Source: Eledone cirrhosa
Lineage: Eukaryota
Assembly: GCA_964016885.1 (NCBI GenBank)
Contig: OZ024742.1
Location: 177,816,001 to 177,880,000 of the forward strand
Length of the DNA stretch: 64,000 nt
Direction of reading: 5' to 3'
Shown in pieces: positions 319 to 55,710 of the stretch. The notes below the pieces were generated by a model. That model made no database searches. It was not told the origin of the DNA and saw only the letters and a list, made by a program, of their open reading frames with translations. The stretch's first letter is position 1; every line of letters begins with the position of its first letter. A program made the position numbers and the translations under genes.

Positions 319-650
319 AGAGGCCTGTCTGGAAACTTTATAATTTTAATCCCGCGAAAACACTATACATATTACAGTGTTCCAGCTTCATCATCCGAAT
401 GTGATGCAAGACCCAGGTGATTTCATCAGGTGTTATTTGCAGAATTAGTTATATAGAAATTGGCAGGCCATGCTAGAATGAAAATCGTTTCTATATTTTC
501 TATTTTCTATTCTCTGTATTCACAAACTATCTGTTCTTATATATAACTAATTCTGAAATTAGCACCTGATAAAATCGCCTAGGTCTTGCATTATATTCGG
601 ATGATGAAGGAGGACCATTGAAATACCTATAGTTTCCAGTCCGGCCTTCT
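319..650. repeat. Imperfect fold-back element (arms ~319-455 and ~540-650), each arm carrying a damaged hammerhead motif; PLE pLTR derivative
   Basis: cttcatcatccgaatgtgatgcaagacccaggtgatttcatcaggtgttatttgcagaattagttatata is the near reverse complement of 540-609. Minus arm reads AACAC-CUGAUGA...GUAA-UAUGUA-UA-GUGUU; plus arm reads CUGAUAA...GAAA-UACCUA-UA. Confidence 0.75.
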
Positions 651-667
651 CTTGTTATTTTTAATAT

Positions 668-890
668 ATTATTATTATTATTATTATTTGCATTCATCTT
701 GCTTTATGTTTATACGAGTTATCACCAAGTCACAACCAGTGACCTCAAGAGACAACAAGGTCCGCCATGTTCAAGAAAGAACACACATATTCACACATGC
801 ATCCTTAGTGTTTAGACTTGTGATGTACTTATATTGACAGGATCTTCCTTAGTATATGGGCAGTTCCCATTAGTACTATCTTTTGTATTT
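668..890 (-). mobile_element. 5'-truncated ~220-bp copy of the adjacent R4/Dong LINE 3' end with its own (TAA)n tail
   Basis: 668-890 is nearly identical to 891-1109 (3' UTR plus last codons ...IQKIVLMGTAHILRKILSI*). Confidence 0.9.
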
Positions 891-3800
891 TTATTATTAT
901 TATTATTTGCATTTATCTTGCTTTATGTTTATACGAGTTATCACCAAGTCACAACCAGTGACCTCAAGAGACAACAAGGTCCGCCATGTTCAAGAAAGAA
1001 CACACATATTCACACATACATCCTTAGTGTTTAGACTTGTGATGTACTTATATTGACAGGATCTTCCTTAGTATATGGGCAGTTCCCATTAGTACTATCT
1101 TTTGTATTTCTCCTATACGCGGGTTTCCTGGGATTTGCGATAAGTAGTCGTTAGACCCCTTAGGTATCATTCCCAGAGCGCCTACAACCACTGGTATTGT
1201 TTTAGTTCTCAATTTCCACATTTTTCCAATTTCTATCTCCAGGTCCTTATACTTGCTCAATTTTTCAAATGTTTTTATAGATACATTCTTGTCTATTGGA
1301 ACAGACATATCAATTAGCAGGCATACCCTCCTTTGAAAGTCCTTCAATATTATATCAGGTCTATTTGCATCTATTTTTCGGTCTGTTTGGATGCTAAAGT
1401 TCCACAAGATTGAGATGTGATCTTTTTCAAGTATGGGAGGTGGTTGATGCTCCCACCAATTCTTTTGATGGGGCAGGTCAAAATGCTTACACATTATCCA
1501 ATGTATGTATTGTGCAGCTCTGTCATGCCTGTTTAGGTATTCGGTTGGAGCTATAGGACTGCACATTGAAATTATATGGTCAATGGTCTCTGGTTGTTTT
1601 TTGCATACACGGCATAATGGGCTGCACCCATTTTTTATTATGTTGGCTTGGTAATTTTTTGTTGGCAGACACTGATCTTGTGCGGATATAATCAGTCCTT
1701 CAGTCTCCGATTTCAGTCCAGAGGATGCCAACCACTGATGGGTTAAAGTTTTGTCAACATCAGGATTGTTAGCTCGCTCTGGGTATTTTCCATACAGAGG
1801 CTTTTCTTGCCATTTCTTAGCCAGTTTCTGTAGCAGTTCTTTCTTTGCAGTTACTTTTACCTGCTTTGCTTTTTCTGTGTTTTCCATTTCAGCAGTAAAT
1901 GGGACTTCTGAAATTTGTAGTCCATTACTGTATCTTTGTGCATCTTTTGTAATGGAATATGATCTTTTGGTGCTTTCGTGTTTCAAAACGAGTTTGATCA
2001 TCCAATCATGTGATTCCCTTAGATATGTGGATAATCCAATTGTTGCAGTTTTCAACGCAATGTCTAACTGGATTAACCCACGTCCTCCTTCTTTCCTAGG
2101 GAGATATATTCTATCTATGTCTGCCTTAGGGTGATGCATTCTGTGCATGGTTAAGAATTTTCTAATTTTTGTATCGCGCCTCCGGATCTCTGTGCTTGAC
2201 CAGTTGATGACATTGTAACTGTAGGTTACTACTGGTATGGCAAGCGTGTTTATGGCATCGATCCTATTCCTTGCATTCAATTCCGTTCTTAAGATTGCTC
2301 TTACTCTGCGGTAACATTCCTTCCTTATCCTTTCCCTCATTATCGAGTGATTGATTCCGTCTCCTTCACAAACACCTAGATATTTGTAAGTTCTCTTATC
2401 ACATTCCCCCGATCAATATTAATGTCTGATCTTTTCAGCAGCTTTCCTCTGGTGAACGTTGCTTTGGCGCATTTATCTAGTCCAAACTCCATTTTAATGT
2501 CATCAATGAACTGCTCCACAGTGGATAATATCCCTTGCAATTGTTCATCATTTTTTGCAAATAGTTTCAGGTCATCCATGTAGAACAAGTGATTAATGGT
2601 TTTGTCATAGACTTTATATCCATGTTTTGTTTCATTGAGCATTTTACTTAATGGTATAAGTGCGATGCAGAATAAAAGCGGTGATAAAGAGTCACCCTGA
2701 AAAATTCCACAATTAATATTAACTTCTCCAGCTTTCAGTAATTTTGTTTCACTATTCAAAAGGAGTGTCGTTTTCCATGTCTTCATACTGAATGACAAGA
2801 ACCTCCTGACAACGGGAGATATTTTGAAAATCTCTAAACATTTGTCAATCCAACTGTGTGGCAAACTATCGAATGCTTTTTTATAATCTATCCAAGCAAT
2901 TGATAGATTTGTGTGTCTATTATGACAATCTTCCAGTATCATTTTGTTAACCAAAGGCTGATCCTTACAGCCTTATGAGCCTCGTTTACACCCTTTCTGC
3001 TCATTGGGATATACGTCATTTGTTATCAGGTGTTCATATGTATATTCAGTTAGGACTGATGTTAAAATGTTATACATTGTGGTCAAGCAAGTTATCGGTC
3101 TGTAATTTTGGCATTGTCTGTCTCATCATTCTTCGGAAGCAGGAATGTAATGCCGTTAACTAGCCATGATGGTATCTTTTCTGGCTCCTTAACTATTTCA
3201 TTGTAAAGTTGGGCTAACAGCTCATGAGACTCTGTGAAGGCATTTATCCAAAAATTTACTATTTTGTCTTTTCCTGGGGATTTCCATTTGCTTGTTTTTT
3301 TAAGAGACAAACGCAACTGTTCAACTGTTATATTTTCCCATATTTGTTCCTCAAGGTGAGCTGTATCTTTCATTTGTCTTTCTATCCATGGTGCATGTAT
3401 ATTATGAAATTTTTCTTCGGCCCAGATCTTTTCCCAGAATTCTTGCACTTCCTCCTTGGGTGGTATTGATTTAGCAGTTATTGTTCACTTGCCAATTTTT
3501 CTGTAAAAGTTTCTTTGGATGTTTTTGAACATATTATTGTCCTTATAGAATCTAGATCGTTTTCAAAGCGCCTTATAGGAGCAGCTTTGGCCGACACTTT
3601 TTGCTTGATTATTTCTATCAGCATGTCTATGTCACTTGTTGATTTTATACTGTATTTTCTTTTCAATTTTCTAAGTTTAGTTTGTTTAACATGTTCACCT
3701 ACTTTGTAGTTTGTTAACATTTCTATGTCAGATCGGAGAAGGTTTATTTGGCGATTGATGTTCTCTTGCCAAGTGCATTTCTTGTGGGAATTCCTTTGTT

Positions 3801-53660: not shown

Positions 53661-54577
53661 CACTTTCACAACTCGTACCACTAAGACTTTCGGTCCTAAA
53701 ATTGCTGTTTTCCTCCAGCAAAAAAGGACGAGGACATCACGTATGATGAATGAACCCTCTGAGGCTGATACACTGGGTATCACCGGCTGTTCACAGCGGT
53801 AACATGTCTGGCATCTTGTCCATGGGATGCAACTGAGATTTGCCAACCATCCTTTTTTTCCCTTTTACATTTTTTCTTTGTTTCATTATGATAATTTTAA
53901 CAAACTTGTTGATCTAAGGAGCACTTGAAAAATTAAACAATTTAAATATATGCATCGGTATCATAGACAGATTTTAAATAAAAGCTAGAAAAAAGTTTCT
54001 TATAATATCAATCTAATCTATGCTTTCTGTAGCAATCATATAACTGAATAATTCTATGATACCTCTATATCTTACAATATTATTTTTTAGATGCCCGGAA
54101 CATTCACTTGCTTTTCTTCAGATTATATTACACGGTATTCTAAATTTATAATATATTTTAATTAACTTTTGTTCAATTAAAAGTGCAATGAGATTAATTA
54201 TAATAGTCACTTCTTAAGTACACTCTACATTCAACATAAAAATTTCAGAAACCGCGTGTCTGACTATACTTTGATTCCCCAAAGTCGGAGATATTTTAAT
54301 TATTCTTACAAAATCTCATTTCCTCATTGCCAAAGCCTTAGGCCTTGTCGCTCTCAATAGGAAATTACATTTTGAATATATGTATGTGTGTATCTGGACT
54401 ATCAACTTATGTATCAGACAGTTTGTTTCCTCCTGCATATATTGTAGCTTCAGTTAAGATACTTCATTCGATATCGCTTCAATGTCCATAGCTCTGGGGA
54501 ACAATGTACGATTGGTTTGTGAGGAGCGTTACCTGCAAGCGACTAGCTTCCTCAACTGGTAATTTAGAGATAACATT

Positions 54578-54885
54578 ATTTTTTTATTTAAGCACAAGGC
54601 TAGAAAATCTGGGTGAAGGGCAAGTTGATTAAATCAACCCCAATATATTATGGCAATTTATTTTATCGAACTCGGATGGATGAAAAGAAAGTATGAGCTT
54701 GTATTTGAACTCAGAGTGAAGCGTCAGAACAAATTGTACAATCGGTGGACTGGCAGTATCGGTAGAGGGTCGGACACCATGGTTTGCAGCAAAGAGTTAT
54801 TCTCCTTACGGGGTCGATAAAATAAAGTACCAGTAATACACTGGGATAATTAATGGCCTTGTGCCAAAAAGTATAAACAATTATT
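54578..54885. mobile_element. Old minus-strand SINE plus an internally deleted plus-strand SINE
   Basis: gcacaaggctag..ttttatcgaa..tttgaactcag; ggtggactggcagtatcggtagagggtcggac..ggggtcgataaaataaagtaccag. Confidence 0.7.
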
Positions 54886-55420
54886 TTATCAAATGCTCTA
54901 TCAACTCCATCAATCTACTGCCCATTGATTTAGAGAACATCTTGGAATATATATACTGTGTTAAGCTTTCTATCTATTTTATTGCAATTATTTCATGGTC
55001 CCCGTGGACAGAATCAGAAATGCATTTTCCCAAAAGCTAGCCAGATAGATACTGTTAAAAATCCAGTTCAACTTGCGAAATGTTTTCTAGTAGATATAAG
55101 TCTCCATCTAGAATATAGTAATTAAGGAGGGTGGTGTTCAGGAAGCCAGGTCACTAGCTGTTTTCACAGCTACAGGTTCGTAATGCGGCTGCTACTAGAT
55201 CAGATTGCGAACTTCAGCCTATCTAGCAACGGAGTTTCAATCTCATGCTATTTTTTCGTTATATATTGATTGCTAGGTACTTCTATTCAAACATTAGTTA
55301 TTCATATTTATACGTGGGCGCGCGCACACACACACACACCTATATATATATATATATATATATATATATATATATATATATATATATATATATATATATA
55401 TATATATATATATATATATA

Positions 55421-55710
55421 CGATATTAATAAATGGAAACTATATTTATAAAACCATATTTATTTCATTATACATATTTCAGGGATACCAAATTAAATTA
55501 TGGTATGCCTTCATCAGACAAAATACAATATATAACAGTTTTACAAATAAGCTTTGACGTACCCTATTAAAATGCAACCATTATTTTTGGAAGCCATCCG
55601 GATAGTTAATTAATATCGTATATCTACTCCAAATACTTGTCGAGTGCTTTATATCAGTTATAAAAATATTTACTTGTTGTATCCCAACAATTTTAAATAG
55701 AACTTTTGCA
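55421..55710. mobile_element. Second copy of the 22621-23060 family in (TA)n, with an intact hammerhead at 55461-55525 (minus)
   Basis: 55421-55605 matches 22711-22896; 55610-55710 matches the reverse complement of 22620-22720. Confidence 0.85.

What the first reader, a model, noticed from the sequence alone, without database searches (positions are those of the whole stretch)
359..55525. Sequence-unrelated hammerhead families share a C·C mismatch at the 4th pair of an extended stem II
Seen by manual pairing of the bases after CUGANGA with those before GAAA. 22952-23016 and 55461-55525: A-U, G-U or G-C, G-C, C·C, then 6 bp. 43049-43190: C·A, A-U, G-C, C·C, then 11 bp. 49724-49863: A-U, G-C, A-U, C·C. 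51561-51627: G-U, G-C, A-U, C·C, then 7 bp. 47305-47362 and 16813-16870: U-A, C·C, A-U, C-G, C-G. Both arms at 359-434 and 561-636: U-A, C·C. 40636-40710 has C·U. That is six families with different helix sequences and the same mismatch position. All have a 6-nt (near-)palindromic stem III insert (UAUAUA, CGAUCG, CGUUCG, UAUGUA, UGAUCA, CAUGUG) and UA or UC cleavage sites. Known: PLE pLTRs carry minimal type I hammerheads with palindromic stem III that are thought to act as dimers and usually have short stem II. Inference: a distinct hammerhead subclass in which a stem II internal mismatch replaces the loop-2 tertiary contact or is an RT recognition site.
Basis: partly seen in the sequence, partly recalled or inferred. 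Interest (0 to 1): 0.85.

Follow-up and report, generated by a model that had tools for sequence, protein, structure and literature searches.

The report
Retroelement hammerheads with conserved C·C mismatch
Several diverged families of self-cutting hammerhead RNAs at the ends of Penelope-like jumping genes in an octopus-like genome keep the same unpaired C·C at one helix position while the neighbouring pairs change, which points to an undescribed docking site for RNA or protein.

Summary
A type I hammerhead scan blind to stem II pair 4 found 8 motifs: 7 have C·C there and 1 has C·U; 300 shuffled windows gave none. Over 7 groups with unalignable flanks, pairs 2, 3 and 5 are always paired with changing letters, and pair 4 never is.

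The motifs sit in short, (TA)n-inserted, often inverted 3' fragments of Penelope-like elements (PLEs). The protein hits point to an octopus genome. No parent ORF is adjacent.

The 359/561 copies have broken cores. The 6-nt stem III is not the minimal form.

No C·C at pair 4 was seen in 56 + 34 published PLE hammerheads (read by eye) or in 29 scan hits from other animals. Lünse 2017 could not be read.

Best reading: a new hammerhead variant whose C·C is a selected recognition site, more likely an RNA contact than a protein contact. Nothing was tested biochemically. The scan had not noted this on other DNA. Side find: a scrambled-order, Naiad-type hammerhead at 38266-38367.

The parts
22952..23016 (+). 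Family A hammerhead, intact core; C·C at 22970/22993; predicted cut after 23008
22751..22815 (-).
22624..23056 (.). Family A insertion: two 3' fragments head to head between (TA)n tracts, with a 3' tail on the left copy
55461..55525 (-). Family A hammerhead; C·C at 55507/55484; pair 2 is G-C instead of G-U
55423..55706 (.). Family A insertion in (TA)n; its 100-nt 3' tail (55606-55706) is inverted and placed at the 5' end
51561..51627 (+). Family B hammerhead; C·C at 51579/51604; predicted cut after 51619
43049..43190 (-). Family C1 hammerhead, 105-nt stem II domain; pair 1 C·A; C·C at 43171/43073
43328..43462 (+). Inverted copy of C1, cut off inside the core (C3 and the 5' strand of stem I lost)
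49724..49863 (+). Family C2 hammerhead, 100-nt stem II domain; C·C at 49745/49838
47305..47362 (+). Family D hammerhead; pair 1 U·U; C·C at 47319/47343; 3' tail inverted at the 5' end of the insertion (47100-47227)
16813..16870 (-). Family D hammerhead, intact core, weaker stem II; C·C at 16856/16832
359..434 (-). Family E hammerhead, decayed (GUAA for GAAA); C·C at 419/379
561..636 (+). Family E hammerhead, inverted partner, decayed (core position 8 changed, insert not palindromic); C·C at 576/616
40637..40710 (+). Family F hammerhead; C·U at 40651/40691; UC cleavage site

Best explanation
These are type I hammerhead ribozymes in the 3' repeats (pLTRs) of one lineage of Penelope-like retroelements that has radiated into many families in an octopus-like genome; only short, 5'-truncated, often inverted ends are left here (architecture shown; parent ORF not found). 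The lineage has its own stem II: no extra base after A9, a weak N·U first pair, purine-pyrimidine pairs at 2 and 5, C·C at 4, then a long helix whose loop is free to vary from about 10 to 100 nt (shown). The C·C was inherited from a common ancestor and kept by selection on its identity (inferred). Most likely it is an RNA docking site. It lies at the depth where the canonical 4-bp helix II gives way to loop 2, so it would take over the helix I-helix II contact that speeds cleavage, possibly with a recurring AAUR at stem I positions 1.5-1.8 (inferred). The RNA would cut after UA/UC, as a monomer (2 bp plus tetraloop) or as a dimer through the 8-nt self-complementary stem III (inferred from known hammerhead biochemistry).
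For: Blind scan 7 of 8 C·C, 0 in 300 shuffles, 3 of 120 at chance. One representative per group: C10.4 in 7 of 7, C11.4 in 6 of 7; pairs 2, 3 and 5 paired in 7 of 7 with 3, 3 and 2 pair types; C is only 18% of the window. C10.4 is the only invariant stem II column in the 10-sequence alignment. Copies in public runs vary at stem II pairs 1, 2, 5, 6 and 8, N7, loop III and stem I. No row for either C or for the core is among the 40 of 61 rows shown, and all 5 loose-end consensuses that cover 10.4 read C (read by eye). PLE hallmarks: (TA)n sites, inverted 5'-truncated copies, inverted tails; summed depth falls from about 780,000 to 4,000 within 60 nt upstream of the core, there are two 3' ends, and inversion joints cluster at 22824-22826. 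Loop 2 differs freely in length and sequence, so the canonical loop 2 contact cannot be there. AAUR follows the cut site in 6 of 7 groups, with a shuffle chance of 0.07-0.20 each (noticed post hoc).
Against: No cleavage, probing or RNA data. All positives come from one window and close relatives; the 7 groups may be only about 3 lineages. In one search, 13 of 20 stem II positions show no listed variant, so two unlisted C's are not significant alone (p about 0.4); 21 rows were hidden, and 22721-22755 is equally invariant. Family F has C·U. The AAUR is base-paired in most families, shifted in F and C2, absent in E, and lies in AT-rich DNA. ViennaRNA gives pairs 1-3 near-zero probability in 6 of 10 copies, so several copies may not fold as drawn. 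No PLE ORF lies beside any copy.
Confidence: 0.42

Rival explanations
1. The C·C is a protein recognition site: the element's RT-endonuclease (or a host protein) binds the stem II mismatch to chaperone the ribozyme or to select its template RNA.
For: Identity, not just unpairing, is conserved. A PLE hammerhead from anole cleaves only when the PLE protein is added (PMC11167929, passages). Inversion joints and 5' truncations cluster just upstream of the ribozyme. The proximal helix is marginal on its own.
Against: The PLE hammerheads beside ORFs here and in other animals work without it. In the anole element RT starts downstream of the hammerhead, and ribozyme mutants do not block insertion in vitro. 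No parent protein was found.
Confidence: 0.28
2. The mismatch is a brake: it weakens the 3-bp proximal stem II so that most RNA stays uncut and usable as template; any weak pair would do, and C·C is simply ancestral.
For: Pairing position 4 in silico stabilises stem II by 2.1-6.7 kcal/mol. Pair 1 is also weak (G-U, U·U, C·A in 4 of 7 groups). F has C·U. A U·U at the base of helix II goes with weak cleavage in axolotl retrozymes (PMC7229834).
Against: A pure brake should drift to A- or U-containing mismatches in 64% AT DNA, yet C·C stays in 6 of 7 groups.
Confidence: 0.15
3. Neutral inheritance: the families descend from one recent ancestor, and the two C's have simply not yet changed.
For: Intermediates link A and B; D, E and F share short words next to the core; weak flank link between D and E.
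Against: Flanks and stem II interiors are unalignable between groups, and every neighbouring pair has changed with compensation.
Confidence: 0.12
4. Register artefact: the true helix is shifted, so that the C's pair elsewhere.
For: For 22952-23016 the minimum-energy fold shifts by one base and bulges C10.4.
Against: That shift sequesters A9 and does not fit B, C2 or D; in A3 and C2 the drawn register has probability >=0.95; covariation follows the drawn register.
Confidence: 0.03

Closest known systems
Minimal PLE hammerheads (min-HHR) of Cervera and de la Pena 2014 (PMC4209133)
   Same: Type I topology, CUGANGA/GAAA core, palindromic positions around loop 3, place in PLE ends, many heterogeneous families per genome, helix II often longer than 4 bp.
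   Different: Their consensus has an extra base after A9 and G10.1-C11.1, with 0-4 nt inserts in most rows and short loop 2. Here: no extra base, U11.1 in 9 of 10 copies, a 6-nt insert, C·C at pair 4, loops up to about 100 nt. 0 of 56 rows of Fig. S3 show C·C at pair 4 (read by eye).
Hydra-clade PLE hammerheads (Craig et al. 2021, PMC8557442, File S2)
   Same: (TA)n insertion; first stem II pair often U·U or G-U with U before GAAA; palindromic stem III.
   Different: 7-8 nt insert, short perfect stem II; 0 of 34 table rows show C·C at pair 4 (read by eye).
Neptune-like PLE hammerheads (window 7080; loci L271, L273, L275-L277)
   Same: Often no extra base after A9, sometimes U11.1; microsatellite-rich surroundings.
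   Different: 2-4 nt insert, short stem II, no C·C.
Type I hammerheads of animal non-LTR retrozymes (Cervera and de la Pena 2020, PMC7229834)
   Same: Stem III of 2 bp plus a tetraloop; the mussel ones lack the usual loop 1-loop 2 nucleotides.
   Different: Retrozymes are 150-450 bp tandem repeats; the copies here are solo or inverted 3' fragments. The mussel sequences could not be seen (supplement too large).
Short-stem-III PLE hammerheads of Lünse, Weinberg and Breaker 2017
   Same: PLE-associated, palindromic short stem III, proposed dimers (from the review PMC6765202 and recall).
   Different: Unknown: the paper is not held, so I cannot exclude that its alignments already show this mismatch.

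Membership tests
Type I hammerhead ribozyme | Conserved core CUGANGA, GAAA, UH in type I order | tested here: met
   Exact in 9 of 11 listed full copies; broken in the two E copies
Type I hammerhead ribozyme | Stems I and II with covariation | tested here: met
   Stem I 4-10 bp; pairs 2, 3, 5 paired in 7 of 7 groups with several pair types, partly by construction of the scan
Type I hammerhead ribozyme | Self-cleavage after UH | not testable with these tools
   No RNA holder listed; needs an assay
Canonical (tertiary-stabilised) metazoan type I hammerhead | 4-bp helix II closed by G10.1-C11.1 with conserved loop 2 | tested here: not met
   First pair N·U, helix extended past a C·C, loop variable
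PLE min-HHR (Cervera 2014 consensus) | Extra base between 9 and 10.1 and G10.1-C11.1 | tested here: not met
   Absent in all copies; consensus read
PLE min-HHR (Cervera 2014 consensus) | Palindromic stem III/loop 3 | tested here: met
   8-nt self-complementary or near-self-complementary segment in 9 of 10 copies folded; duplex -2.2 to -10 kcal/mol
Penelope-like element | RT plus GIY-YIG ORF upstream of the hammerhead-bearing pLTR | tested here: inconclusive
   No ORF remnant beside any copy with two PLE profiles; the fragments are too short to be expected to hold one
Penelope-like element | 5'-truncated and inverted copies, optional 3' tail, microsatellite targets | tested here: met
   features as described in PMC8557442 and PMC11167929
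Non-LTR retrozyme | Head-to-tail tandem units of 150-450 bp, each with a hammerhead | tested here: not met
   None in the window; no unit-length 'goes back' joint among the 15 of 17 joints shown (short records, weak test)
Naiad PLE hammerhead-like motif | Scrambled order of the core blocks at the 3' end | tested here: not met
   The C·C motifs are ordinary type I; the Naiad ends seen are not

The most novel reading that the evidence does not exclude
The stem II C·C (with purine-pyrimidine neighbours) is a lineage-specific RNA signal read by the element's own RT-endonuclease, making these hammerheads protein-gated switches that decide whether a transcript is cut or used as template. That would make the open question of what PLE hammerheads are for testable with a two-base change.
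Probability: 0.25. Interest if true: 0.75.

Novelty: new variant of a known kind. Interest (0 to 1): 0.55.

Why it matters
Natural hammerheads are thought to need a loop-loop or pseudoknot contact between helices I and II, and PLE hammerheads are described as lacking one and cutting poorly. A conserved mismatch inside a long helix II would be a further natural solution, or a protein handle. It gives a precise mutation for testing why PLEs keep hammerheads. Descriptor searches that demand a perfect, short stem II miss this class: none of the 150 Rfam matches listed (of 180) was a hammerhead family. It is probably under-counted in cephalopod genomes.

Tried and rejected
Rfam scan: no hammerhead family among the 150 of 180 matches listed. 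No whole genome is held, so the genome-wide count was not possible.

C·C pattern scans: 0 of 32 viral loci and 0 of 118 metagenome loci (about 790 estimated in all; 10 of 64 parts scanned) had stems I and II of a real hammerhead. These collections hold little animal DNA, so this is weak evidence of absence. A recurring metagenome family was, read by eye, the antisense of an RT coding stretch.

Parent ORF: tblastn and two HMMs found nothing beside the motifs. The Neptune-like element (8220-10544) and the PLE at 19951-21693 carry other hammerhead types. Neptune alignment against viral contigs: none. The Naiad origin suggested by the 'HHR_core' notes was rejected: the Naiad ends I saw are scrambled-order motifs (part of the hits only).

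A sequence-only model found no new member in the window; a relaxed scan added one doubtful two-mismatch hit at 44594. No RNA holder listed. Shifted registers were considered and fit only family A. Earlier scan notes: one Athena hammerhead note, unrelated to the mismatch; nothing.
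Full report
SETTING. The window is 36.5% GC, microsatellite-rich animal DNA. 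A PLE reverse transcriptase at 19951-20856 is 72% identical to an Octopus vulgaris protein, so I call it octopus-like. No whole genome is held.

OBSERVATION. All listed motifs are present and pair as described, with the corrections given under the observation check. I wrote a type I hammerhead scan that scores stem II pairs 1-3 and 5-8 but ignores pair 4. It returns 8 motifs (22960+, 22807-, 55517-, 51569+, 49735+, 43181-, 47309+, 40641+): 7 with C·C and 1 with C·U. It returns none in 300 block-shuffled windows and none in 120 viral loci matching the core pattern, where C·C occurs at that position 3 times. With the three weaker copies (16866-, 429-, 566+), C10.4 is present in 11 of 11 and C11.4 in 10 of 11.

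INDEPENDENCE. Local alignment of flanks and stem II interiors against shuffles gives 7 groups: A (3 copies), B, C1, C2, D (2), E (2) and F. All between-group z-scores are below 4 except one D-E link of 6.0. One representative per group gives these pairs: pair 1 A-U 3, G-U 2, C·A 1, U·U 1; pair 2 paired 7 of 7 (A-U, G-C, G-U); pair 3 7 of 7 (G-C, A-U, U-A); pair 4 C·C 6, C·U 1; pair 5 7 of 7 (A-U, G-C); pairs 6-8 6 of 7 each. Pairs 2 and 5 always have the purine on the 5' side. The groups are probably homologous: C1 and C2 share core, stem I and insert type, D, E and F share words beside the core, and a loose-end consensus in public runs has B's stem I with a stem II between A and B. Even with only three lineages, six C's at 18% each are unlikely by chance (about 3e-5 before correcting for position and mismatch type; my arithmetic). 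So the right statement is conservation through divergence, not convergence.

COPIES ELSEWHERE. Laying four runs on 22624-22896 placed 5,011 contigs of run X1, 67 of X5, 11 of X6 and 30,865 reads of X10. The 40 of 61 variant rows shown include stem II positions 11.1, 11.2, 11.5, 11.6, 11.8, 10.2 and 10.8, N7, loop III and one stem I position. None is at 22797, 22774 or in the core. Five loose-end consensuses covering 10.4 all keep C while 10.1, 10.2 and 10.5-10.7 change, and one from X6 has G-C and C-G at pairs 5 and 6 (read by eye). This agrees with the reading but is weak: 13 of 20 stem II positions have no listed variant, 21 rows are hidden, and 22721-22755 is also invariant.

WHAT CARRIES THEM. 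The motifs lie in insertions of a few hundred bases bounded by (TA)n, as head-to-head pairs (E, A, C1) or with the 3' tail inverted at the 5' end (55423-55706, 47100-47405). In the runs, depth collapses about 200-fold within 60 nt upstream of the core, inversion joints cluster at 22824-22826, and many copies end in (TA)n near 22713-22721 while others run on to 22634. Truncation, inversion, tails and (TA)n targeting are PLE features (PMC8557442 passages; PMC11167929 passages). No ORF remnant was found beside any copy. The two ORF-bearing PLEs in the window have different hammerheads: a U3-A8 core with a 4-nt insert at 7080/11934/14564, and a bulged G-C type at 21970/18743. The parent clade is unknown. 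Inverted pairs put the two ribozymes on opposite strands, so they cannot form a dimer in one transcript.

COMPARISON SET. PLE contigs of animal origin inside four prokaryote assemblies gave 670,037 bases. A general scan (inserts of 2-9 nt, one internal mismatch allowed; not run on the window as a positive control) gave 29 distinct hits, about 4 of them probably chance, none with C·C at pair 4. Three more read by eye (L271, L275, L276) have none; L276 has U·C closing a short loop after three pairs. By eye, 0 of 56 rows of Fig. S3 of PMC4209133 and 0 of 34 rows of File S2 of PMC8557442 show it. The metagenome and viral pattern scans found no real example.

MECHANISM. Shown: topology, conservation pattern, element architecture. 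Inferred: everything functional. Stem III can be 2 bp plus a tetraloop, or an 8-bp dimer helix of -2.2 to -10 kcal/mol (9 of 10 copies). The proximal three pairs of stem II are marginal: probability >=0.95 in A3 and C2, about 0.8 in C1 (pairs 2-3), about 0.5 in B, and near 0 in the other six. Pairing position 4 would add 2.1-6.7 kcal/mol. The RNA thus pays for the mismatch and keeps its identity, which argues for recognition rather than mere weakening. Helix I-helix II contacts are needed for fast cleavage in natural hammerheads (PMC6155905 passages). Here loop 2 is far away and variable, the C·C sits where canonical helix II ends, and an AAUR recurs after the cut site in 6 of 7 groups (post hoc). 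I therefore rank an RNA contact first (0.42). Protein recognition is second (0.28): one PLE hammerhead needs the PLE protein to cleave, though its mutants did not block insertion in vitro. A brake (0.15), neutral ancestry (0.12) and a register artefact (0.03) follow.

LITERATURE SEEN. PMC4209133: parts 1-2 of 4 of the text and parts 1-2 of 3 of the supplement. PMC7229834: passages and parts 2-3 of 6; its supplement was unreadable and may show mussel motifs that bear on novelty. PMC8557442: passages, supplement parts 1-2 of 59 and four term searches. bioRxiv 10.64898/2026.07.22.740005: parts 1-2 of 5 (supplement closed). PMC6765202, PMC6155905, PMC10085705, PMC11167929: passages. Lünse 2017: nothing read; known from citation and recall. 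Ten full-text searches listed no paper whose title or abstract start describes this mismatch in hammerheads. Hertel numbering and clade names for the window's PLE ORFs ('Neptune-like') are from recall, not from a call.

VERDICT. A real, statistically solid feature; a new variant of PLE-type type I hammerheads as far as I could check. Function untested, range known only from one octopus-like genome and near relatives, and one key paper unseen. Interest 0.55. The scrambled-order hammerhead at 38266-38367, listed under Noticed in passing, may deserve more attention than the finding itself.

Noticed in passing
window 38266-38367 (+); partial copy 37829-37863: A hammerhead in scrambled order with a split stem II. 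The cleavage strand (stem III 38307-38311, cut after 38312, stem I 38313-38318) comes first, then GAAA (38329), then CUGAUGA (38356). The strand after CUGAUGA pairs 5 of 5 with 38266-38270, the strand before GAAA 5 of 6 with 38292-38297; a 6-bp hairpin lies between them, and there is a further 5-bp helix. The two strands do not pair with each other. The scan gave 1 hit, against 1 in 200 shuffles. By eye, the same layout with changed letters ends the Naiad consensi of Acropora, Pomphorhynchus and Octopus in PMC8557442 File S5, a paper that reports no canonical hammerhead in Naiads. Non-circular permutations are described from metatranscriptomes with the blocks kept whole (PMC10085705 passages). 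Possibly an undescribed topology and the missing Naiad ribozyme; one search listed no paper on it.
   Followed up: partly
PMC8557442 File S5, nematode Naiad ends: Nippostrongylus Naiad ends read by eye as core-first, cleavage-strand-second, GAAA-last (type CSG of PMC10085705), a permutation with weak prior support.
   Followed up: no
window 8220-11740 (-), repeats at 6933-7313, 11745-12700, 13040-14753: Intact-looking Neptune-like PLE (774-aa RT/GIY-YIG ORF plus a 427-aa upstream ORF) with tandem and inverted 3' repeats; its hammerhead (7080-, 11934-, 14564+) has the U3-A8 core variant.
   Followed up: partly
window 18464-22249: PLE of another clade (RT with a long insertion, one in-frame stop) with a 1.3-kb, 99% identical inverted copy; bulged G-C minimal hammerhead at 21970+/18743-.
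   Followed up: partly
window 48100-49500: About 17 tandem copies of a 72-nt unit (98% identical) derived from a dispersed roughly 190-nt SINE-like repeat that has over ten copies in the window.
   Followed up: no
window 17500-17600 (-): Decayed hammerhead-like core with a 9-bp stem I upstream of family D; class unclear.
   Followed up: no
G004 contigs C653 and C448 (L356, L357): Tandem 3.8-kb PLE units with the endonuclease upstream of the RT and in-frame TGA codons at several positions, as in selenoprotein Naiads; no scrambled-order hammerhead was found there.
   Followed up: partly
G001-G004, G017: Prokaryote assemblies in the genome collection hold animal retroelement contigs; G004 has 142 PLE matches.
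   Followed up: partly
window 1048-4668 (-), 25640-30874 (-), 32509-36034 (+): Three broken non-LTR retrotransposons (RT domains).
   Followed up: no
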